Counted from the stretch's first letter, positions 3,361 through 55,757 are shown. The stretch is DNA of 64,000 nucleotides from Candidatus Nomurabacteria bacterium (GCA_023898465.1 CP060223.1:1-64000), one strand, 5' to 3'. Program-made: numbers and translations. Notes: generated by a model from the sequence alone, not told the origin.

Positions 3361-3435
3361 TGGTGCCCCGGGAGGGAGTCGAACCCCCATTAGTGGCTTA
3401 GAAGTCCACAGTTCTATCCGTTGAACTACCGGGGC
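3361..3435 (-). tRNA. tRNA-Arg (anticodon TCT)
   Basis: Reverse complement GCCCCGG-TA-GTTC..GAAC-..CTTCTAA..-GGGGGTTCGACTCCCTC-CCGGGGC-A-CCA gives a cloverleaf with a 7-bp acceptor stem, T-loop TTCGACT and an encoded CCA. There is one A-G mismatch in the anticodon stem. Confidence 0.75.
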
Positions 3436-43462: not shown

Positions 43463-44122
43463 CTATTTTAGGGCCTGAAGCACATCTTGCAAATCGAGCA
43501 ATTGGAGCTCCTCACCATATATTTTTCGCTGCACATCAGTGGCATATCCCGAGGCAGCAAAAGAGATAGCTCGAGGGATTTTTTGGGCAATGAGGCTCTG
43601 ATAAAGCTCATTCAGGTCTTGTCGCGTGACTGTTTTTCCCTTTGGAGCACAGTAGACCGGCACCTTTCCTTTATTTGTAGCGAGGAAGAAGTCAGGTGAG
43701 GGCGATGCAGAGGATTGTGGGCTGGGAAGTATTTGAAAACCCTGTTGTGTAAAGAATTTTTGTAGCTCCTTTATCTGTTGGACATCATTCACTTGTTGCC
43801 AAAAGTAAGTTTGCGAGACTTGCTCTTGCTTAACTTCCTTTTGTTGGAGCTCTTTCTCTACTTTATTTGTTCGCCAGGCAGGAGAGAAAAGTCCGAGAAT
43901 TCTTTTTATTTCTCCAATTTGGTAGACAGCCATGTAAAGTCCGATGAGACCACCTGCCATACCAAAGAGGAAAAGGGAAATAGCAATGTTACGGAAGGTG
44001 AAGCCGGCAAAGAGGAGGAGTACCAGCGCCACGAGGATACCAAAGGTCACTCCGGCGATGACGGTCTGGGTGGGGAGGTGGGCTTCTCTTTGCTCCATTC
44101 TTTTTTTGTCGTCCATATGCAT
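43463..44122 (-). CDS. membrane protein with C-terminal restriction-endonuclease-like (Mrr_cat-type) domain, tentative
   Basis: Two TM helices, then a PD-(D/E)xK-like segment DFFLATNKGKVPVYCAPKG. The domain assignment is weak. Confidence 0.35.
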   Translation of the reverse strand: MHMDDKKRMEQREAHLPTQTVIAGVTFGILVALVLLLFAGFTFRNIAISLFLFGMAGGLIGLYMAVYQIGEIKRILGLFSPAWRTNKVEKELQQKEVKQEQVSQTYFWQQVNDVQQIKELQKFFTQQGFQILPSPQSSASPSPDFFLATNKGKVPVYCAPKGKTVTRQDLNELYQSLIAQKIPRAISFAASGYATDVQRKIYGEELQLLDLQDVLQALK

Positions 44123-45349: not shown

Positions 45350-46585
45350 ATGTCATCACCAAATCAATCAGGTTTTTACGGCCTACATGTTGCTCCAAAG
45401 TTCTTGGACATACTCGCCCGTCTCAACTTTACTCAACCCACCCCAATTCAACAAAAAGCCATTCCTTTAGCCATTGATGGCAAGGATCTGATTGGTATTG
45501 CCCAGACTGGTACGGGTAAAACCCTGGCTTTTGGCTTACCAATGTTGCAAAACCTTTCTCGGGTGAAGGGGCAGGGTCTGGTCGTGCTGCCGACTCGTGA
45601 ATTAGCCGCCCAGGTAGATGAAACACTACAACGCTTAGGTCGTGGAATTGGCGTGCGTACGGCAATCATCGTGGGCGGCGCTTCTATGGATCGACAAGAG
45701 CGGATGCTGCGTAATCGTCCACACGTCATTGTCGCTACACCCGGGCGTCTGATTGACCACCTTGGTTCAAAGCCAAACCTCTTGCAGCAGGTAAAAATCC
45801 TGGTGCTTGATGAGGCTGACCGCATGCTTGATATGGGATTTGCGCCGCAGATAAATCAGATATTAGAGAAAGTTTCTAAAGAGCGTCAGACCATGCTCTT
45901 CTCAGCCACGATGCCAACCGAGATTGTGAGCATCGCACAGAAGCACATGGCCCTACCAGTGCGGGTTGAAATTGCTCGACCGGGTAGTACGACTGATCAA
46001 GTGGATCAAGAAGTGCTCTTTGTGTCTAAGCGAAATAAGAACGCACAGCTCGAGCGCTTACTTCAGCGCTATCATGGTACCGTGCTGGTGTTTTCTCGCA
46101 CGAAGTGGAATGCAAAGAAGTTGACTCGCGACATTCGTCAGATGGGCCACACTGCAGCTGAGATTCATTCCAACCGCACTCAAGCACAACGTCGGGAAGC
46201 ACTAGATGGTTTTAAAAGGGGTAAGTATCGTGTCCTCGTGGCGACCGACATTGCTGCACGTGGTATTGATGTAAAAAATATCGAGCTGGTGGTGAACTAT
46301 GACCTGCCAAGTACACCGGATGATTATGTGCACCGTATCGGCCGCACTGGTCGAGCCGGCAAGAAAGGCAAGGCTATTTCCTTTGCCATGCCTGAGCAGC
46401 AACGAGACGTGAGAGACATTGAGCGTCTTATTCGGGCCGAGCTGCCAGTGGGAGAGGATTCCGAGCCAGTAGAAAACCTTGGTTTAGCCAAGAAGGAGTT
46501 TCGACAACAGAAACGACATTTCCCTCGTCAGGGCGGTCGACCACAGCGCCCTCATCGACGCTCAGGTTTTCGCCGACGTCGCTAA
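45350..46585 (+). CDS. DEAD-box ATP-dependent RNA helicase with RG-rich C-terminal tail
   Basis: Q motif, AQTGTGKT, DEAD, SAT and HRIGRTGR motifs. The ATG at 45350 directly follows a TATATA element. Confidence 0.85.
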   Translation: MSSPNQSGFYGLHVAPKFLDILARLNFTQPTPIQQKAIPLAIDGKDLIGIAQTGTGKTLAFGLPMLQNLSRVKGQGLVVLPTRELAAQVDETLQRLGRGIGVRTAIIVGGASMDRQERMLRNRPHVIVATPGRLIDHLGSKPNLLQQVKILVLDEADRMLDMGFAPQINQILEKVSKERQTMLFSATMPTEIVSIAQKHMALPVRVEIARPGSTTDQVDQEVLFVSKRNKNAQLERLLQRYHGTVLVFSRTKWNAKKLTRDIRQMGHTAAEIHSNRTQAQRREALDGFKRGKYRVLVATDIAARGIDVKNIELVVNYDLPSTPDDYVHRIGRTGRAGKKGKAISFAMPEQQRDVRDIERLIRAELPVGEDSEPVENLGLAKKEFRQQKRHFPRQGGRPQRPHRRSGFRRRR

Positions 46586-46849: not shown

Positions 46850-47179
46850 TTATTTTTCCGGAAGTGTTTGTACAAAGCTTAATCCTTGCTCCACCCAGTA
46901 CTCAAGCTGCTTTTTTGTCTTTATTCCCTTAGGTTTAATATTGAGCACGCCCCTCATTGGCCTGCCGGTGAAAAGCATTTCCTGAGCGTGTTTGTGTTTC
47001 AGTAGCTCCGGGTATTTTTCTTTCCCTACTCGGACGACCAGTTTATCTTTGATAATTCCGCAGCATAAATTACCGTTTACCATAATAACCAAACCACCGA
47101 ACATTTTTCGTTCATCAACGTGCGGTACGGTAATAAAAATTTTGTAGAGACGTTCTGCGAGTTTCTCGTCGTAGGCCAT
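46850..47179 (-). CDS. TfoX N-terminal domain protein
   Basis: The pattern MFGG...NGNL.CG...LVVRV resembles TfoX/Sxy N-terminal domains. Confidence 0.6.
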   Translation of the reverse strand: MAYDEKLAERLYKIFITVPHVDERKMFGGLVIMVNGNLCCGIIKDKLVVRVGKEKYPELLKHKHAQEMLFTGRPMRGVLNIKPKGIKTKKQLEYWVEQGLSFVQTLPEK

Positions 47180-47497
47180 TATTTTAATTGTACTCCAAAA
47201 TAACGTTTACCGCAGCCATTTTATTAAGTCCAGATTCTTGTCATTATTCTTTCCGTCGGCAAGTTTTGAGTGTTTTTTATGCTAGCTCCCTACTCGATTT
47301 AGGCGATAGGTGAAAAATCTAGCCCGGGGGGTAGAGAATGCAGAAAGTGAAGGTGGAGGGCTTTGTCCGACGGGAGCCGCGCAAGGTGGAGTTGGTCCCA
47401 GGTCAGATAGCTGTGGTACTAGAAAATGGAAGAGGTGGAAAGTTTAGCCTAGCTGTATTAGAGTAGGATTAATAACACCTTGATAAGATAAAGTACA

Positions 47498-48487
47498 ATG
47501 AATATAATACTAGATTCGAATGTGCTGAAGGATAATTATTATCTCAATACACCGAGATTTCAAGCCCTGTTTAGCTATCTAAAAAAAACAAAATCAGAGT
47601 GTTTCATTCCTGAAATAGTAATTTTAGAAACGATAAAAAATTATAAAAGAGATACTGAAGAATACAACAGTATTGTTGATTCCCTAAAGAAGACTAATAG
47701 AGTTTTAGGTCTTAATGGTCCGAACCTTGAAATTAATATGAGCGATATTGTAAATAAGTATGAGCGAAGTATTTATAAAATAATAAAAAAAGTTGGAATA
47801 AAACTAATTCCGACTAAAGACTTGTCAATTTCAATTGATTCAGTTATTTCTCGATCGTTAAATGATATCCCGCCATTTTATAGATCAGGTAGATCAAGTG
47901 ATGTAGGATTTCGAGACTATATAGTTTGGGAGACTGTAAAATTTGTTAATAAAGACTTCGAAGGTAATCTGTGCTTTATATCGAACGATAAAAAAGCATT
48001 CGGACAAAGTTGTGAGTTATTTAGTAGATTAAAAAATGAATCCAACGTTCACTTTTATAACCTATTGGATGAGTTTTTAAATGAATATGCAGAAAAAATT
48101 AATTTTATTAGTGAAGAATACTTGGAGGACTACTTTCGTGAAGTTTTAGAAGATGAAATCCCTAATGTGGTGACTCTTAGCGAGCTACTAGCGACGAAAC
48201 CTGAGAATGAATATATAGATCCTTCTGACATAACTGACTATGAGTTTGATGAAATATCTATTTTGGATTTTTACGTTTATAATGCGACAACAAAATACTA
48301 TTACGTTTTCGTAAGGACAGACTTAATAGTAAGAGCTTATTATCTAAATAGATTAATGCTAGCGGCCGGACTTGATGATGAAGTATCTTCCGATTATTCT
48401 TTTTTAAGGTTCAAGAAATCCTTTTTACTAAGAATTGATAGAAGAACTAAAAGACCAGATCGTTTTCAAAATCATACTAGCAATTAA
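47498..48487 (+). CDS. PIN-like domain protein (DUF4935-type), very AT-rich foreign gene
   Basis: The N-terminus IILDSNVL...FIPEIVILE...ISND carries the three acidic PIN positions. The gene reads as about 30 % GC by eye, in strong contrast with its neighbours. Confidence 0.55.
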   Translation: MNIILDSNVLKDNYYLNTPRFQALFSYLKKTKSECFIPEIVILETIKNYKRDTEEYNSIVDSLKKTNRVLGLNGPNLEINMSDIVNKYERSIYKIIKKVGIKLIPTKDLSISIDSVISRSLNDIPPFYRSGRSSDVGFRDYIVWETVKFVNKDFEGNLCFISNDKKAFGQSCELFSRLKNESNVHFYNLLDEFLNEYAEKINFISEEYLEDYFREVLEDEIPNVVTLSELLATKPENEYIDPSDITDYEFDEISILDFYVYNATTKYYYVFVRTDLIVRAYYLNRLMLAAGLDDEVSSDYSFLRFKKSFLLRIDRRTKRPDRFQNHTSN

Positions 48488-48745
48488 ACTTCTAAGTCCG
48501 CTTGGAAAAACTAGATTTATTTTAAATTATCAACAACCTTATCTATTACGGCCCTTCTTTTCGCTTGCCCATCCAGAGGTCAATAAGGTTTTTCGCATAC
48601 TTAGGTCAAGTTGTCTCACTAACGGGGAGTTTTTTAATGCTTCTTTCATGCTGCGAATGGCAAATAGTATAGCAAATACAATATTGACCAGTACGTTTTT
48701 CTCTGGTATTCTTCCGAGCTGTAACTGAACTTGCACAATAGCGTG

Positions 48746-48820
48746 GTGGCTATAGCACAGTGGTTAGTGCACCGGGTTGTGGTCCCGGTGACATGGGTTC
48801 GAATCCCATTAGCCACCCCA
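48746..48820 (+). tRNA. tRNA-His (anticodon GTG) with G-1
   Basis: G-1 followed by GTGGCTA acceptor, anticodon loop TTGTGGT, T-loop TTCGAAT and an encoded CCA. Confidence 0.85.
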
Positions 48821-48845
48821 GTGTTGTGCAGGTGATGCGAAGACT

Positions 48846-49799
48846 TTATTCGTCTTCGTCTTTTTCATCCCTCCGCCGGCCATGAAAGGCTTTGTACACT
48901 TCACGTAGCTGCGCATTAGTAACGTGGGTGTATATTTGCGTGGTCGTAATAGAGGAGTGGCCGAGCAATTCCTGCACAGAGCGAATATCAGCACCATTCA
49001 TTAGCAGGTCAGTAGCAAAGCTGTGCCGCAGGGTATGCGGTGTAATCTTTTTCGTAATCCCGGCAATCGCGGCGTAGCGCTGCACCATCCGTTGGATAGA
49101 GCGGGGCGTAAGTGGACTGACTTCCTCGCCTTGTATCTCATCACTTTTTCCAGCAGCTCGATCATGTCGGACAAACAGCGCATCGTTGCCGTCGCGCCGC
49201 ATCTGCAGGTAGTGTCGGATCGCCTGCTTCGCTTGTTCAGAAATAAATACCAGTCGGACTTTGCCGCCTTTACCCTTGACCGAGAATTCATCCTTTTCCA
49301 GGTTGAGACTGTTGCGCTGCAGTTTCGCTAACTCGGAAATACGTAATCCCGTTGAGAAGAGTGTTTCGAGAATTGCTCGGTCGCGTTGCTTCACGATGTC
49401 GCTGCTTGGACTTTTATATGGAGCTTGCAAGAGTTGCTCCAAATCCTCTGAATCAAGGAAGTTGACAGAGCGCTGCGACTGTTTCATTAGCTCAATTTTT
49501 TCTGGAGCTAGTGAAGCAATATCGTGTCGCGATAGATATTTCAAAAATGAACGCAGGGCAATGAGGTGGTAGTTTTGCGTTGAGGCTTTAAGAGTTTCAC
49601 TATCTTTACCGAGCAGGCGATTCAACTTCAAACGAAAAGAGCGCACATTCGCCTCGGTAATATCCTTAGGAGTTTTTACTCCGCTCAGCTCAAAAAAGCG
49701 CGTGAGATAAAAATCATAATTGCGGACAGTGAGTTGACTCCGTCCACGCTCGATTTCGAGATACTCAAGAAATTCAGTTTTTAGCTTTTGCAGATCCAC
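48846..49799 (-). CDS. tyrosine site-specific recombinase (XerC/XerD / phage-integrase family)
   Basis: N-terminal core-binding domain and catalytic R...HxxR...Y (LRHSFAT..., GHSSITTTQIYTHV). It starts 25 nt beyond the tRNA-His 3-prime end on the opposite strand. Confidence 0.85.
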   Translation of the reverse strand: MDLQKLKTEFLEYLEIERGRSQLTVRNYDFYLTRFFELSGVKTPKDITEANVRSFRLKLNRLLGKDSETLKASTQNYHLIALRSFLKYLSRHDIASLAPEKIELMKQSQRSVNFLDSEDLEQLLQAPYKSPSSDIVKQRDRAILETLFSTGLRISELAKLQRNSLNLEKDEFSVKGKGGKVRLVFISEQAKQAIRHYLQMRRDGNDALFVRHDRAAGKSDEIQGEEVSPLTPRSIQRMVQRYAAIAGITKKITPHTLRHSFATDLLMNGADIRSVQELLGHSSITTTQIYTHVTNAQLREVYKAFHGRRRDEKDEDE

Positions 49800-49933
49800 C
49801 AGGGAATTTTACGACACAACGGAAGGAAATACAATAAATGCAAAAATCAAAATATGAAACCCACTGTTTGGTAGTATGTGTAGCAGCTTAGTTTTTGACC
49901 AATTTCGATTTTCGTATTTCGAAATTCGAGCTT

Positions 49934-52179: not shown

Positions 52180-52334
52180 CCCGCGTTACGTTGCCAGAAA
52201 TGGCGGTCGTAGCACGATCATTGACAAGTGAATAGTCAGTTGATCGTCACAATAGTGAGGCAGCTTTTAGGCTGTTCTCTTGTGAATGGTCGTAAGCGTT
52301 CGAAAAAGCAGGTCTTAGACCTGGGGAGGATGCA

Positions 52335-52919
52335 ATGGCTGATATCACCGGCTTCTTGGAAAAGATTGCCGGGGCGATAATTGGAGCCAAAGATGAAAAA
52401 GGTGCCGACCAAAAGCCAGCCACGAAAAAGAAGGGTTGGCTTGAGGACGTCGCAGAGATCGAGATGGACAGGGTTTTGCCTGCCATTGCGAGGTCTATTT
52501 TTCGTCTGACCGGCGGCCGAGGTAAGGAGTTTATCGCTCTACTCACGAGCGATCCGGCTAAGTTGGTCTGGGCTCGACTCACCCCTGATCATTGGAAGTA
52601 CTCGAACCTGATCGACAATGCTCGAAATCGTCTGGCTGTTGAACTTTCCAAACTATCGACTGGAGAGGCCTCGCTCGATGATGACGAAGTAGGTCTAAGT
52701 CTGGCAGAGATCGATTGGTCCGTCGCCGACTTCGAGACACTACTTGAGGTGAGCATTGCTCGAGCCGAGTTTGAGTTGGAGTATCCCGAAATGATACCCG
52801 CCTATGATAGGTTTGTGGCAAATCTCCTGAAAGGGAATGGCGCAAAGAAGAAAGAGGGCGGTAAGGATACGAGGGGCAGCAAAGGCAAGCAGTCAGGAGG
52901 TAAAGATGGTGGAAAGTAG
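52335..52919 (+). CDS. operon gene A: hypothetical soluble protein with Lys/Gly-rich C-terminal tail
   Basis: GGGGAGGA RBS. 194 aa. GC-rich codons. No recognised domain. Confidence 0.5.
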   Translation: MADITGFLEKIAGAIIGAKDEKGADQKPATKKKGWLEDVAEIEMDRVLPAIARSIFRLTGGRGKEFIALLTSDPAKLVWARLTPDHWKYSNLIDNARNRLAVELSKLSTGEASLDDDEVGLSLAEIDWSVADFETLLEVSIARAEFELEYPEMIPAYDRFVANLLKGNGAKKKEGGKDTRGSKGKQSGGKDGGK

Positions 52920-53445
52920 CAACCCCAAGAAGGGCCTCCTCGATCGCTTCCTGAAAGGGACGCCAGACGAGAAGGCCACCGTGCTGCGAAGTGTCGGCAT
53001 GGGTACTGGAAGTGGAGGAGCCACGGCAAAACGTGACTTCAACGCGCTTTTGTATCGCAGTTCTCAGATCACGGATCAGATGCGTGAAGCGTATGCGGAG
53101 TTTCGACGTGGTCTCAGCATCGAACAACTGGAAGCAGTCCGGCGTATTGAGGCGACGTTGAATGATGTCGGTTCAGTACGTTCATGGCTTGAGTTGAATG
53201 ATGACCAGCGTATCGAGGTGGCTGAGAACTACAGCACCACTACCGTGCCTCAGCAAGAGGTAGCCGATGCAGTTCGTGGAGCTGCCGGGGCGCTTCAACG
53301 GGGTACTGCCTCGATGGCGGGTTTTCGTGAACGCCACCGTGCTGGTCTGGAAGAGAAGAAGCAGAAGTGGCAAGAAGAAGATGAAGCAAGAGCGCGTCGG
53401 CGAGAAGCTGTGCGCGGCTGGCTTCGAAATCCTTTCCGGCGATAG
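52906..53445 (+). CDS. operon gene B: hypothetical soluble protein with Gly-rich loop and charged helical C-terminus
   Basis: GGAGG lies 6 nt before ATG (MVESSNPKK...). It overlaps the end of A by 14 nt. The track lists a longer ORF from 52837. Confidence 0.5.
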   Translation: MVESSNPKKGLLDRFLKGTPDEKATVLRSVGMGTGSGGATAKRDFNALLYRSSQITDQMREAYAEFRRGLSIEQLEAVRRIEATLNDVGSVRSWLELNDDQRIEVAENYSTTTVPQQEVADAVRGAAGALQRGTASMAGFRERHRAGLEEKKQKWQEEDEARARRREAVRGWLRNPFRR

Positions 53446-53460
53446 TCAACGAAGGAGGTC

Positions 53461-54813
53461 ATGATGTGGGAACGGATCAAGCGTTTCTTCGCCGGCGAGG
53501 TGGAGGACGCGCTAGGTGAGCTTGGTGGCGAAAGTGTGAATGTCATCACAGCGTTCCTGGAAACGGTCTGGTGCGTAGCCTCGGTCTTTTACCAGACTGA
53601 GGTCAGAGTGTTGAAGCGTGGGCTTCCTTGGTTGATTGTTTGGTTGACCACTTGGGCCATGACGACAATAGTAGCCTGGGTTTGCAACAACTTCTTTTGG
53701 CACCGACCTTGGTTGTCGTCAGTAATTGGTCTTGCCTCGACTCTCTTCGCCTTATTCGTCTTTATCTATGGAGGGAGAATTCTCTTCATATTAGCGGTGG
53801 CGAAGGGGATCACGACCATGAGGCTCTCGAGGTGGAAGCCCTGGGAGATAAATGTGCTCATGGAAGATCTCCGTCGGGGCATGGATGGAACGCTCGACGG
53901 GTATTTCTACTTTCTCCGGATTCTGAGTTGGGTGGCAATTGGTGAGCTCTTGTTCTTCATCTATGGGAACATCTTCCCAATGTGGAACAATTACGCCGTG
54001 ATGCCGCTTTTCTTTTCCACCCTTCTTGTGTTCATACTTCTGTCGAAGAAGCTGAGCACGGGCGCGGAGAAGGCGGCTCGGATGCAGCAGGTGCAGCAGG
54101 TGATGCTCGTCATCGCCGTTCTGTGTTCGGGGAGCTTCCTGGCGCCGGGACCTTTCCAGCGCTTTGGAGCAATGCTCACGAGCCTACAGACCAAGGCAGC
54201 CTCTGACACCTGGTTCCCAGTGTCGGCGCTCTTGATCGTCTTCATCACTCTTGCGGTGTACGGCAGCAAGTCCTTGCTCAAGTACACGCAGTGGTTGATG
54301 ATCGGCTTGGCGTCGTCGTACATCGGCTACGTGGCCATCTCCGCAGTCTGGATCAAGCACAACACTCCGCTCGTGCCGACGGTTTTCCTAGGTACGGTCG
54401 CTCTGGTGCTGGTGCTGGCGGCAATCGGACTCACGATGCCGAAGTCGACTGACGGGTCCGGTAAGCGGATGGCTCTTGGTGTTGGTCTGGCTGGATTGAC
54501 TTGCGCCTGCCTCCTCCTCTTCTACGGGGGGAGTCAGGACGGACAGTATCTGGATCCGGTCTCGGGTGCCGCGAAGGTTTTCGTGGCAACTGATCCGGTG
54601 ACAGAGACCCAGATCGGCGTTCGCGGACCAAAGGCGGCGACGTACACGGTTGATCCCGAGTACGGACAGCCCTTCGTTGCCTGGACCTCTCTCACCAGAG
54701 AGGAGCAGGACAAGTTCCGCAAGAACCCGAAGTGGATCGATGAGGTCAAGCTGGAAGGCTTGGGTCTCACGAACAGTAACGCGACCTACACACTGAAAGG
54801 AGGCACACCGTAA
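53461..54813 (+). CDS. operon gene C: hypothetical polytopic membrane protein (450 aa)
   Basis: GGAGG RBS. At least 8 hydrophobic segments. No recognised family. Confidence 0.55.
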   Translation: MMWERIKRFFAGEVEDALGELGGESVNVITAFLETVWCVASVFYQTEVRVLKRGLPWLIVWLTTWAMTTIVAWVCNNFFWHRPWLSSVIGLASTLFALFVFIYGGRILFILAVAKGITTMRLSRWKPWEINVLMEDLRRGMDGTLDGYFYFLRILSWVAIGELLFFIYGNIFPMWNNYAVMPLFFSTLLVFILLSKKLSTGAEKAARMQQVQQVMLVIAVLCSGSFLAPGPFQRFGAMLTSLQTKAASDTWFPVSALLIVFITLAVYGSKSLLKYTQWLMIGLASSYIGYVAISAVWIKHNTPLVPTVFLGTVALVLVLAAIGLTMPKSTDGSGKRMALGVGLAGLTCACLLLFYGGSQDGQYLDPVSGAAKVFVATDPVTETQIGVRGPKAATYTVDPEYGQPFVAWTSLTREEQDKFRKNPKWIDEVKLEGLGLTNSNATYTLKGGTP

Positions 54814-55757
54814 TGGTGTCGATCCTCGATATCTATGTGCTTTTCGCCGTCTTCATGCTGGTGTTTCTCAACTTCCGGCGTGGAGACTGGACGCGGGGTA
54901 TCGCAGCGGTGATCTTCGGCGCTTTGGGTGTCGGCTTCCTCGTCGGGATGATCAAGTCTTTCCCGCTGCAAGTGGGAATGCTGGAGCCTCCGCTTCGCAC
55001 CTGGTCGACTGCAGGCACGGTGGAAATCGTGTTCCGCCTGGCGATCACGTTCGGCCTGATCTATTGGCTTGTGTACATGATCAGGGTAAAGAAGTGGACG
55101 CTGCGACCTGTTGTCTTGGGGATTGCGGTCCTCATGGCACTGGGCTTCGATACTGGCATGATGCTGCGACCGTACTATACGGACAGTCTCGCGCCGGTCG
55201 TCGAGGTAGCAGCAGCTGATTCACTCGAAACGAACTACGAGTCCTTGACTCTGGTCGCACGTGCGAATCAGCGAGAGAATCGGGTGCGTTCGGTTCAGAA
55301 GGGCGATCTCGTCATCTGCCGCTTCGTAGGAGAGCCTGACAAGTTCTGCTACCGAGCGCTCAAGAGCACTCCGTACTATCGGGGCGCTCGAGAGGTGCAG
55401 TTGGTCGGCTCCTATCAGGATCCTACCCAGCACTCGGTTCGTGACTACATCAACGCGACGGACTACAGCTTCCTGCTTCCGCCGTCGCGCATCAGCGCTC
55501 GACGAATCCCCACCAGCCTCAACTTCATCGGTGTCTGCGGCTATGCCCCGGCACCTCTGCAAGATGAGGTGGCAAGCTTCGTGGTACGGGAGTCAGGGGA
55601 TTTGTACATCGGGTATAACACCCGAGCCTACAATATGCCTTTGACTCGCTTCGCTACCTTCAACTTCGGCTACTGGCACGCACCCATGAATCCTCCTACG
55701 GTGAATGGGGAACGTGTCTTTCAGGTCACGGTCATTCCTGCTGGAGAGTGGGGATGA
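54813..55757 (+). CDS. operon gene D: hypothetical membrane protein (4 N-terminal TM helices plus a soluble C-terminal domain of about 200 aa)
   Basis: AGGAGG RBS. Its ATG overlaps the stop of C (TAATG). Confidence 0.55.
   Translation: MVSILDIYVLFAVFMLVFLNFRRGDWTRGIAAVIFGALGVGFLVGMIKSFPLQVGMLEPPLRTWSTAGTVEIVFRLAITFGLIYWLVYMIRVKKWTLRPVVLGIAVLMALGFDTGMMLRPYYTDSLAPVVEVAAADSLETNYESLTLVARANQRENRVRSVQKGDLVICRFVGEPDKFCYRALKSTPYYRGAREVQLVGSYQDPTQHSVRDYINATDYSFLLPPSRISARRIPTSLNFIGVCGYAPAPLQDEVASFVVRESGDLYIGYNTRAYNMPLTRFATFNFGYWHAPMNPPTVNGERVFQVTVIPAGEWG

What the first reader, a model, noticed from the sequence alone, without database searches (positions are those of the whole stretch)
47300..49800. 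Very AT-rich PIN-like (DUF4935-type) gene between a TfoX-like gene and tRNA-His plus an integrase-type recombinase
- Composition: 47498-48487 encodes a 329-aa protein whose N-terminus carries the PIN acidic triad pattern (IILDSNVL / IPEIVILE / ISND). Its DNA is strikingly AT-rich compared with every neighbour.
- Context: directly downstream is tRNA-His (48746-48820). A tyrosine recombinase gene on the opposite strand starts 25 nt beyond the tRNA 3-prime end. A tRNA followed by an integrase is the canonical integrative-element arrangement.
- Interpretation: solitary PIN-like proteins of this type are typical cargo of defense islands. Its position upstream of the tRNA may instead reflect insertion at another hotspot.
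Basis: partly seen in the sequence, partly recalled or inferred. Interest (0 to 1): 0.65.

Follow-up and report, generated by a model that had tools for sequence, protein, structure and literature searches.

The report
Foreign Cosus-like PIN nuclease gene
A single, very AT-rich gene for a two-domain PIN nuclease was acquired from elsewhere by a tiny Nomurabacteria genome; it is probably a stand-alone anti-phage gene distantly related to the "Cosus" defence protein, and the tRNA and recombinase beside it are ordinary chromosomal genes.

Summary
ORF 47498-48487 (329 aa) is a full-length Pfam PIN_12/DUF4935 match (E 6e-21) with every family-invariant residue. At 30% GC (GC3 24%) it is the most deviant kilobase of the window (z -5.9).

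The "tRNA plus integrase" reading does not hold:
- The recombinase is a Xer-type enzyme, 50-69% identical across Patescibacteria.
- Its adjacency to tRNA-His, usually Xer, tRNA-Arg(tct), tRNA-His, is conserved in many relatives.
- No repeat of the tRNA exists in the 64 kb.
- The PIN gene lies 5' of the tRNA.

The gene is a roughly 1.2-kb single-gene insert with no partner gene and no recognisable ends. A confident AlphaFold model (pLDDT 92.5) shows a VapC-like PIN domain with a helical insert, plus an NTF2/VirB8-like C-terminal domain.

The same Pfam family contains Brc24 "Cosus", a single-gene integron cassette reported in a preprint to give complete T7 resistance. Profile-profile comparison links the two clades over 258 columns (93.9% probability), although BLASTP shows nothing.

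In all 11 homologue loci examined, including Brc24 itself, the gene is more AT-rich than its flanks. One homologue sits between the two genes of a type III restriction-modification pair, another in an island with a reverse transcriptase.

Verdict: a new, distant member of a known and barely characterised kind. The defence function is inferred, not shown.

The parts
47498..48487 (+). PIN_12 (DUF4935) family gene, 329 aa, stop codon included. This is the only gene of the foreign insert.
   Evidence: ORF. Pfam PIN_12 E 6.2e-21 over the full profile. 1077 representative clusters at E<=1e-3, lengths 320-380 aa, aligned from residue 1. GC 30.1%, GC3 24%.
47498..48010 (+). N-terminal VapC-like PIN domain (about residues 1-171), with a long two-helix insert (residues 39-99) between strand 2 and strand 3. 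Predicted metal-binding residues are D6, E44, D140 and S162/D164.
48095..48484 (+). C-terminal alpha+beta domain (about residues 200-329): two helices followed by a four-strand curved antiparallel sheet, NTF2-like/VirB8-like. Proposed regulatory or oligomerisation module.
47440..48700 (.). Low-GC tract (27-38% in 120-nt windows), the approximate extent of the acquired DNA. It is barely longer than the gene. The right edge is gradual, between about 48520 and 48700.
   Evidence: Fine-scale GC profile. No flanking direct or inverted repeats beyond chance.
47338..47466 (+). 42-aa ORF with a G-rich Shine-Dalgarno-like sequence upstream, ending 31 nt before the PIN start. About 57% GC. Status unknown, probably not part of the insert.
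   Evidence: ORF list. No homologue in any fetched locus. No RNA-structure signal, z -1.3. No Rfam hit.
48684..48712 (+). Promoter-like site (TTGACC, 17 nt, TATTCT, with TG) about 35 nt upstream of tRNA-His. Native tRNA upstream region that bounds the insert on the right.
   Evidence: Consensus scan. This is a pattern match only, and the total number of sites found is not above the shuffle expectation.
48745..48820 (+). tRNA-His(GTG) with encoded G-1, C73 and CCA. Ordinary chromosomal tRNA, right-hand neighbour, not an att site.
   Evidence: ARAGORN. Rfam 71.9 bits. Sequence reading. No repeat of it elsewhere in the window.
48846..49799 (-). Xer-type tyrosine recombinase (317 aa), convergent with tRNA-His. 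Conserved core gene, not an element integrase.
   Evidence: Pfam Phage_integrase plus SAM_1. NCBIfam XerC, XerD and XerA-type. Orthologues 50-69% identical with the same tRNA neighbours. Catalytic motifs intact.
46850..47179 (-). TfoX_N-domain gene (109 aa), left-hand neighbour. Native-like composition (GC 42%, GC3 46%).
   Evidence: Pfam TfoX_N E 8.8e-14. GC.

Best explanation
Window 47498-48487 is a horizontally acquired gene that arrived alone. It sits in a roughly 1.2-kb AT-rich insert in the spacer between a TfoX_N gene and the promoter region of the chromosomal tRNA-His, in a Candidatus Nomurabacteria (Patescibacteria/CPR) genome.

Shown:
- It encodes a two-domain protein of Pfam family PIN_12/DUF4935.
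- The N-terminal domain is a VapC-like, metal-dependent PIN nuclease domain carrying a long helical hairpin insert.
- The C-terminal domain is NTF2/VirB8-like.
- The gene is a distant relative of Brc24 'Cosus', which a preprint reports as a one-gene anti-phage system.

Inferred mechanism:
- It is a self-contained anti-phage or anti-mobile-element effector with no antitoxin.
- The C-terminal domain and/or an oligomeric state keeps the PIN active site (D6, E44, D140, D164) idle.
- Phage infection relieves this restraint and the PIN domain cuts RNA, stopping phage production.
- The strong AT bias may keep expression of a costly gene low.

The neighbouring Xer recombinase and tRNA-His are housekeeping genes and played no demonstrable part in the insertion.
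For: Family membership and intact active site.

Fold.

Foreign origin:
- GC 30% against 48%, z -5.9, GC3 24% against 46-55%.
- The family is patchy. The nearest relatives are single-member clusters from metagenomes, and the best is 42% identical in another Patescibacterium.
- Neighbourhoods differ in all 10 homologue loci of its own clade, and no neighbour recurs.
- In all 10 of these loci the gene is 6-17 GC points below its flanks. Brc24 on plasmid pKAZ2 is 2.5 points below.

Link to defence:
- Brc24/Cosus gives complete T7 resistance, and D14A reduces it by more than 1e5-fold.
- Brc24, recovered as pKAZ2 ALG87191.1, hits PIN_12 at E 2.4e-36.
- Brc24 D14, E52, D153 and D177 align with window D6, E44, D140 and D164.
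- hhalign of the two clade profiles gives 93.9% probability, E 1.5e-7, over 258 columns reaching into the C-terminal domain.
- The Brc24 model shows the same pattern of helices followed by a beta-meander at its C-terminus.

Context of homologues:
- P0009 sits between the methylase and the ResIII restriction subunit of a type III R-M pair, near an integrase, a terminase and a NERD protein.
- P0002 lies in a 5.5-kb low-GC island with a reverse transcriptase.
- P0023 lies near a SocA/Panacea antitoxin-type gene and a Fic gene.
- P0005 lies about 700 nt 3' of a tmRNA gene.
- A full-length structural match exists in a metagenomic siphovirus (E 6e-17, TM 0.67).
- Some Cosus-clade proteins carry an N-terminal cold-shock (RNA/ssDNA-binding) domain.

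Monocistronic habit of the family: Matelska et al. 2017, PMC5499597.
Against: - No experiment exists on this clade.
- Similarity to Cosus is at profile level only (BLASTP not significant; the A1 profile scores 22.5 bits on Brc24).
- The Cosus data come from a preprint. Of 11 mutants only T12A, D14A and D96A were reported as strongly defective. D153A and D177A, the equivalents of the invariant D140 and D/N164, are not among them. Escape mutations mapped to tail protein gp12, and the authors suggest interference with genome injection as well. A nuclease mechanism is therefore unproven even for Cosus.
- PADLOC v2 gives no hit, but it also misses Brc24 itself.
- Several homologues sit among plain housekeeping genes with no defence neighbour.
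- No promoter-like site lies upstream of the ATG. The two best sites would start transcription downstream of it.
- No close relative of this genome was found, so the empty site has not been seen.
Confidence: 0.55

Rival explanations
1. Cargo of an integrative element that targeted tRNA-His, with the adjacent tyrosine recombinase as its integrase.
For: A tRNA and a tyrosine recombinase are 25 nt apart and a compositionally foreign gene is next to them. One homologue lies 3' of a tmRNA gene, a classic island target.
Against: - The recombinase is Xer-type.
- It is conserved at 50-69% identity across Patescibacteria, with the same Xer, tRNA-Arg(tct), tRNA-His neighbourhood in many relatives.
- No repeat of the tRNA or its 3' spacer occurs in 64 kb.
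- The PIN gene is on the 5' side of the tRNA.
- Genes beyond Xer (cNMP/GAF, PilT) have normal GC.
Confidence: 0.03
2. Toxin of a type II (VapBC-like) toxin-antitoxin pair whose small antitoxin gene is unannotated, for example the 42-aa ORF at 47338-47466.
For: The PIN fold is closest to VapC toxins. A 42-aa ORF with a Shine-Dalgarno-like sequence ends 31 nt upstream.
Against: - The small ORF is 57% GC against 30% for the PIN gene, so the two were not acquired together.
- The small ORF has no homologue upstream of any of the PIN_12 relatives examined.
- The family is described as monocistronic.
- The protein is 2.5 times the size of VapC and carries its own extra domain.
- Cosus works as a single cloned gene.
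Confidence: 0.08
3. A passenger with no current role for the host: recently transferred DNA that is silent, selfish or on its way to decay.
For: Unameliorated composition points to recent arrival. No convincing promoter lies upstream of the ATG. The nearest relatives are rare singletons.
Against: - The ORF is intact over 329 codons in 70% A+T DNA, where stop codons arise easily.
- Every family-invariant residue is kept.
- The model is very confident.
- CPR genomes of about 1 Mb shed useless DNA quickly (general knowledge).
Confidence: 0.25
4. A housekeeping RNA-processing PIN nuclease that merely happens to be AT-rich (a low-GC core gene).
For: PIN domains include rRNA/tRNA maturation enzymes. 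The gene lies among translation-related genes (IF-2, DEAD-box helicase, tRNAs).
Against: - The gene is absent from all 16 Xer-syntenic genome loci of relatives.
- Its context differs in every homologue locus.
- It is always more AT-rich than its host DNA.
- There is no NCBIfam equivalog.
Confidence: 0.04

Closest known systems
Brc24 'Cosus' (ALG87191.1, IncC plasmid pKAZ2): single-gene anti-phage integron cassette (bioRxiv 10.1101/2024.07.02.601719)
   Same: - Same Pfam family (PIN_12): Brc24 E 2.4e-36, window protein E 6e-21, both covering the whole 172-position profile.
- Similar length (382 against 329 aa) and the same two-part layout, a PIN domain with a helical insert followed by helices and a beta-meander.
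- Aligned D/E/D/S-x-D signature.
- Clade profiles align over 258 columns at 93.9% probability.
- Both stand alone with no partner gene, and both are more AT-rich than their surroundings.
   Different: - No BLASTP-detectable identity.
- Different host range: Gammaproteobacteria against Patescibacteria and metagenomic singletons.
- No integron and no attC-like site was recognised here; this rests on reading the downstream spacer and a repeat scan, with no attC-specific search.
- Brc24 T12 corresponds to I4 here, and Brc24 D96 lies in the variable helical insert.
- The phenotype is known only for Brc24.
Pfam PF16289 PIN_12 / DUF4935 as described by Matelska et al. 2017 (PMC5499597)
   Same: - N-terminal VapC-group PIN domain with 4-5 conserved acidic residues.
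- Long helical insert after strand 2.
- Less conserved alpha/beta C-terminal region.
- About 350 aa, and usually monocistronic. All of this matches.
   Different: That paper found no structural homologue for the C-terminal region. Here the model places it in the NTF2/VirB8-like fold class. The family was then recorded in Actinobacteria, Bacteroidetes, Firmicutes and Proteobacteria, not CPR.
VapC toxins of type II VapBC toxin-antitoxin systems
   Different: - No conserved antitoxin gene.
- 329 aa against about 130-150 aa.
- A 60-residue helical insert and an extra C-terminal domain.
- Sequence identity to the matched structures is only 9-19%.
XerC/XerD/XerA chromosome-dimer resolvases (for the neighbouring recombinase)
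   Same: Domain pair SAM_1 plus Phage_integrase, Xer-family HMM scores, full catalytic set, conserved across the phylum.
   Different: It scores below the XerC and XerD equivalog cut-offs and passes only the XerA-type model. It may therefore be the single Xer of a CPR genome. No dif site was looked for.

Membership tests
Pfam PIN_12 / DUF4935 (PF16289) | Match to the family HMM above the gathering score, over the whole model | tested here: met
   76 bits against a cut-off of 32, E 6.2e-21. Residues 3-168 cover profile positions 1-172 of 172.
Pfam PIN_12 / DUF4935 (PF16289) | Conserved acidic PIN active-site residues | tested here: met
   D6, E44 and D140 are invariant wherever aligned (136-138 of 138 homologues). 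S/T162 is kept in 137. Position 164 is always D or N, and is D here.
Pfam PIN_12 / DUF4935 (PF16289) | About 320-380 aa, with a helical insert after strand 2 and an alpha/beta C-terminal region | tested here: met
   329 aa. Helices at residues 39-70 and 81-99. C-terminal helices plus four long strands. Homologues are 320-380 aa.
Pfam PIN_12 / DUF4935 (PF16289) | Usually monocistronic, with no conserved partner gene | tested here: met
   No co-directional neighbour in the window. Ten homologue loci have ten different neighbourhoods.
Cosus (Brc24) anti-phage system | Full-length homology to Brc24 | tested here: inconclusive
   hhalign of the clade profiles gives 93.9% probability, E 1.5e-7, over 258 columns. 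BLASTP is not significant and phmmer with Brc24 finds none of the window protein's 138 relatives. The relationship is distant.
Cosus (Brc24) anti-phage system | Residues whose mutation weakens defence (T12, D14, D96) | tested here: inconclusive
   D14 aligns with D6, which is conserved. T12 aligns with I4, which is not. D96 falls in the variable insert.
Cosus (Brc24) anti-phage system | Protection against phage when expressed alone | not testable with these tools
   Requires cloning and phage challenge. It is shown only for Brc24 in E. coli.
Cosus (Brc24) anti-phage system | Integron cassette with an attC site (typical, but the authors also report homologues without it) | tested here: not met
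   No integron integrase is present. The downstream 258 nt hold only a weak 24-nt, 75% inverted repeat, and I saw no R''/R' core motifs on reading the sequence. No attC-specific search was run.
VapBC type II toxin-antitoxin | PIN toxin fold | tested here: met
VapBC type II toxin-antitoxin | Adjacent, co-transcribed antitoxin gene conserved with the toxin | tested here: not met
   The only candidate is a 42-aa ORF of discordant GC, with no counterpart in any homologue locus.
tRNA-targeted integrative island | Element-specific integrase next to the tRNA | tested here: not met
   The recombinase is Xer-type, and its adjacency to tRNA-His is conserved synteny in relatives.
tRNA-targeted integrative island | Direct repeat of the tRNA 3' end marking the far boundary | tested here: not met
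   The 26-mer with up to 3 mismatches finds only the tRNA itself. No exact 14-mer of the tRNA plus spacer occurs elsewhere in 64 kb. Sequence outside the window was not available.
tRNA-targeted integrative island | Foreign cargo lying 3' of the tRNA, between the att sites | tested here: not met
   The only compositionally foreign DNA (47440-48700) lies 5' of the tRNA. The 3' side has normal GC.
Xer recombinase (neighbouring gene) | Xer-family HMM match and the catalytic R-K-H-R-H-Y set | tested here: met
   XerA-type model 235 bits against a cut-off of 220. XerC 257 and XerD 245 bits, both below their equivalog cut-offs. GLR, HTLRH, GH and IY motifs are present.

The most novel reading that the evidence does not exclude
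The window protein and its relatives form a separate, uncharacterised branch of the PIN_12 family. On this reading they act as antitoxin-less, one-protein immune nucleases in ultra-small CPR/Patescibacteria genomes, lineages generally regarded as poor in known defence systems.

These genes would spread as bare, gene-sized AT-rich inserts with no integrase, repeats or cassette signals, dropping into spacers between housekeeping genes. The NTF2-like C-terminal domain would be the sensor or oligomerisation switch. The extreme AT bias, seen in all 11 loci examined including Brc24 itself, would be a selected way of throttling a costly gene.
Probability: 0.3. Interest if true: 0.55.

Novelty: new member of a known kind. 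Interest (0 to 1): 0.35.

Why it matters
If the gene is an active Cosus-like defence nuclease, three things follow:
- It would be one of the few defence functions assignable in a roughly 1-Mb CPR episymbiont genome.
- It would extend a one-gene immune module from clinical integrons to a very distant branch of bacteria.
- It would provide a well-folded, highly divergent second example for working out how PIN_12 proteins are kept harmless without an antitoxin.

On the practical side:
- The public gene model starts 8 codons too late and removes a catalytic Asp, so anyone cloning from the annotation would get a dead enzyme.
- The case shows that a tRNA lying next to a tyrosine recombinase is not evidence of an island when the recombinase is Xer.

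Tried and rejected
- **att repeats.** The 26-mer of the tRNA-His 3' end with up to 3 mismatches and all 11-14-mers of the tRNA plus spacer found only the T-loop of another tRNA.
- **Flanking repeats around the insert**. Only short matches at chance level. A weak 24-nt inverted repeat at 48578-48689 carries no attC core motifs that I could see on reading the sequence.
- **Empty-site comparison.** The best Xer relatives are 69% identical among genomes and 60% among metagenomes. None of the window's other 10 neighbouring proteins is found in those loci. The site without the insert could not be observed.
- **RNA elements in the two spacers.** Rfam at gathering and at E<=1 gave nothing but the tRNA. 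The fold of 47290-47497 has z -1.3.
- **Small ORFs.** The 42-aa, 65-aa and 97-aa ORFs in the spacers have no homologues in 72 fetched loci.
- **PADLOC and NCBIfam for the PIN protein.** No hit. PADLOC v2 (2023) also misses Brc24, so its silence is uninformative.
- **Phage records.** tblastn gave no match. PHROGs gave only a weak partial hit to a family of unknown function.
- **Plasmid records.** Only distant N-terminal hits of 19-27% identity in actinobacterial plasmids and one Pseudoalteromonas record.
- **Word-index protein search with the alignment.** It returned only 5 proteins.
- **AlphaFold-database fold library.** Not available.
- **Exact look-up of the public 321-aa product.** Not on record.
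- **Brc24 model.** Only moderate quality (pLDDT 72.7, N-terminus poor). I used it only for the topology of its well-predicted C-terminal part.
- **Literature.** 'DUF4935' and 'PF16289' occur in two papers and one paper respectively. Other 'Cosus' hits were journal DOIs.
Full report
**1. What is there**

The window belongs to a Candidatus Nomurabacteria (Patescibacteria/CPR) genome. The identical protein is recorded once, on a 1.08-Mb contig.

The genes around the finding, in order:
- A DEAD-box helicase ending at 46585.
- A TfoX_N gene at 46850-47179 (-).
- A 318-nt spacer.
- The ORF in question at 47498-48487 (+), 329 aa.
- A 258-nt spacer.
- tRNA-His(GTG) at 48746-48820 (+).
- After 25 nt, the stop codon of a tyrosine recombinase gene at 48846-49799 (-).
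- A cNMP-binding/GAF protein and PilT.

The composition anomaly is real and large:
- The ORF is 30.1% GC with GC3 24%. Neighbouring genes are 42-51% GC with GC3 46-55%.
- It holds the lowest 1-kb GC windows of the 64 kb. z = -5.9 against the rest.
- At 120-nt resolution the low-GC tract runs from about 47440 to 48520-48700, so it is hardly longer than the gene.

**2. The protein**

Family assignment:
- Pfam assigns it to PIN_12 (PF16289, the former DUF4935) at E 6.2e-21. Residues 3-168 cover the whole 172-position model.
- An exhaustive HMMER scan of 1.84 billion cluster representatives finds 1077 relatives at E<=1e-3 and 163 at E<=1e-10. Almost all are 320-380 aa and align from residue 1.

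Conserved residues, across 138 of these relatives:
- D6, E44, P126, D140 and W144 are invariant wherever a residue is aligned.
- Position 162 is S or T in 137.
- Position 164 is always D or N, and is D here.

Start codon. The public annotation starts the gene at GTG 47522 (321 aa, MLKDNYY...), which removes D6. The closest homologue begins MNIILDST, as the ATG-initiated product here does. The longer ORF is the right one.

Structure:
- An AlphaFold2 model built on 47 homologues is very confident (pLDDT 92.5, pTM 0.85).
- A two-helix hairpin (residues 39-99) is inserted after strand 2, as Matelska et al. described for DUF4935.
- Matelska et al. could find no structural relative for this region. 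No PDB entry matches the family by sequence.

**3. The tRNA and the recombinase are not an integrative element**

- The recombinase has the SAM_1 plus Phage_integrase domain pair. It scores as Xer: XerC 257 bits, XerD 245 bits, and the XerA-type model 235 bits against a cut-off of 220. The R, HxxR, H and Y catalytic motifs are intact.
- Scans of species-representative genomes and of JGI metagenomes return orthologues at 50-69% identity from many Patescibacteria lineages.
- In relatives whose Xer is at least 55% identical, Xer is followed within about 0.1-1.7 kb by tRNA-Arg(tct), sometimes tRNA-Lys(ctt), and tRNA-His(gtg). This holds in 8 of 16 genome loci and 11 of 23 metagenome loci scanned, a few of which are the same contigs. 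The adjacency is therefore inherited synteny.
- No copy of the tRNA 3' end exists elsewhere in the window, whether as a 26-mer with up to 3 mismatches or as any exact 14-mer. The only 11-13-mers are the T-loop of tRNA-Arg at 34442-34518.
- The foreign DNA lies on the 5' side of the tRNA, and everything 3' of it has ordinary GC.
- The tRNA itself is a normal bacterial tRNA-His with encoded G-1, C73 and CCA, and a promoter-like site lies at 48684-48712.

**4. How the gene got there**

I found no signature of the insertion mechanism:
- No flanking direct or inverted repeats beyond chance.
- No attC-like site that I could recognise. This rests on reading the spacer, not on an attC-specific search.
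- No transposase.
- No RNA family other than the tRNA.

I could not observe the empty site. No genome or metagenome contig closer than 69% Xer identity is available, and none of the other ten neighbouring proteins recurs in the fetched loci.

Foreignness is nevertheless supported by comparison with homologues:
- All ten loci of its own clade that I could fetch have different neighbours.
- In all ten of these loci the PIN_12 gene is 6-17 GC points below its surroundings. Brc24 on pKAZ2 is 2.5 points below.
- In several loci (L072, L076, L077) the dip is gene-sized and sits among housekeeping genes, exactly as here.

**5. What it most likely does**

The only experimental lead in the paper library is the preprint 'Mobile integrons encode phage defense systems' (bioRxiv 10.1101/2024.07.02.601719). 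It reports the following:
- Cassette brc24, named Cosus, encodes one protein with a 'PIN12' domain.
- It gives complete resistance to T7 in E. coli.
- It costs 11% fitness when strongly expressed.
- It loses more than 1e5-fold protection with T12A, D14A or D96A.

I recovered the cassette sequence from the preprint's Table S3. I located it on IncC plasmid pKAZ2 as ALG87191.1, 382 aa.

How Brc24 relates to the window protein:
- Brc24 matches Pfam PIN_12 at E 2.4e-36 over the whole model.
- Brc24 D14, E52, P140, D153, S175 and D177 align with window D6, E44, P126, D140, S162 and D164.
- BLASTP between the two proteins is not significant.
- A profile of the window protein's clade against a profile of 20 Cosus-clade proteins aligns 258 columns at 93.9% probability, E 1.5e-7. 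The alignment runs from the first strand well into the C-terminal domain.
- The well-predicted C-terminal part of a Brc24 model has the same pattern of helices followed by a long beta-meander.
- One JGI record names a Cosus-clade member an NTF2-superfamily protein.
- Some Cosus-clade proteins carry an N-terminal cold-shock domain, which hints at a single-stranded nucleic-acid substrate.

Context in homologues adds moderate support:
- P0009 (33% identical, from a metagenome-assembled 'uncultured bacterium') sits between the methylase and the ResIII restriction subunit of a type III restriction-modification pair. An integrase, a terminase and a NERD protein are nearby.
- P0002 (42% identical, Patescibacteria) lies in a 5.5-kb low-GC island with a reverse transcriptase.
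- P0023 lies near a Panacea-type antitoxin gene and a Fic gene.
- P0005 lies about 700 nt 3' of a tmRNA gene.
- A metagenomic siphovirus encodes a full-length structural match (E 6e-17).
- Other homologues have no such neighbours.

My best reading is therefore a stand-alone anti-phage or anti-mobile-element nuclease. The steps from 'PIN_12 family member with an intact active site' to 'RNA cleavage upon infection, held in check by the NTF2-like domain or oligomerisation' are inference.

The caveats are substantial:
- The Cosus preprint does not list D153A or D177A among the strongly defective mutants.
- Its escape mutants mapped to a tail protein, so even Cosus has no established mechanism.
- This clade is only distantly related to Cosus.
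- The consensus scan finds no promoter-like site upstream of the ATG.

**6. Rivals**

- A VapBC-like pair using the 42-aa ORF at 47338-47466 as antitoxin is unlikely. That ORF is 57% GC and is not found next to any homologue, and the family is monocistronic.
- A silent or decaying passenger cannot be excluded. The intact 329-codon frame in 70% A+T DNA and the complete set of invariant residues argue against decay.
- A housekeeping nuclease is contradicted by the patchy distribution and variable context.

**7. Verdict**

- The DUF4935/PIN call and the idea of foreign defence cargo are supported as far as sequence analysis can go.
- The integrase/tRNA-island idea is not supported.
- The gene is a new, distant member of a known but barely characterised family. 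Its interest is moderate and depends on experiments.

Noticed in passing
window 47498-47522: The public gene model (P0001, 321 aa) starts at GTG 47522 and omits the first 8 codons, including the family-invariant catalytic Asp6. Homologues align from Met1, so ATG 47498 is the likely true start.
   Followed up: yes
window 47338-47466 (+): A 42-aa ORF (MQKVKVEGFVRREPRKVELVPGQIAVVLENGRGGKFSLAVLE) in a purine-rich, roughly 57% GC patch, with a GGGGG..AGAG Shine-Dalgarno-like sequence upstream. It ends 31 nt before the PIN gene. It has no homologue in the fetched loci, no Rfam hit and no RNA-structure signal.
   Followed up: partly
window 3361-3435 and 48746-48820; loci L004-L012, L023-L053: In relatives the order is Xer, tRNA-Arg(tct), sometimes tRNA-Lys, then tRNA-His. 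In all but one locus (L009) the tRNAs run in the same direction as Xer. In the window tRNA-His is convergent with Xer and tRNA-Arg(tct) lies 45 kb away. A rearrangement has therefore broken this tRNA cluster next to the insertion site. Spacers between these tRNAs vary from about 10 nt to 0.9 kb among relatives.
   Followed up: partly
window 43463-44122 (-): A 219-aa protein with an N-terminal hydrophobic segment that looks like transmembrane helices (by eye; no predictor was run). It has a weak C-terminal match to the Mrr_cat restriction-endonuclease domain (E 1.6e-3, below the Pfam cut-off). It lies 3.4 kb from the PIN gene.
   Followed up: no
window ~52200-55600: A high-GC tract (53-60% against a 48% average) holding four ORFs with no Pfam match: 52335-52919, 52837-53445, 53461-54813 and 54813-55757. 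The third is highly hydrophobic and looks multi-membrane-spanning by eye. It is followed by a 1100-aa NHL/FG-GAP repeat protein. This may be a second compositional island.
   Followed up: no
L070 1143-1487 and 2185-3162: PIN_12 homologue P0005 (36% GC in a 53% GC contig) lies about 700 nt downstream of a tmRNA gene, a classic island integration target.
   Followed up: partly
L073 5991-11759: PIN_12 homologue P0009 is wedged between an N6_N4 methyltransferase (636 aa) and a ResIII/DEAD/RE_endonuc protein (914 aa), all on one strand. It is therefore inside a type III restriction-modification pair. A terminase, ParB_N, an integrase and a NERD protein are nearby.
   Followed up: partly
proteins P0246, P0250, P0256, P0263 (Cosus clade): Some close relatives of Brc24/Cosus (about 462-467 aa) carry an N-terminal cold-shock domain (PF00313) fused to PIN_12. 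This suggests a single-stranded nucleic-acid substrate.
   Followed up: no
L001, L067, L068, L070-L073, L075-L078: In every locus examined, including Cosus on pKAZ2, the PIN_12 gene has lower GC than its flanks, by 2.5 to 17 points. This looks like a family-wide trait rather than a peculiarity of this window.
   Followed up: partly
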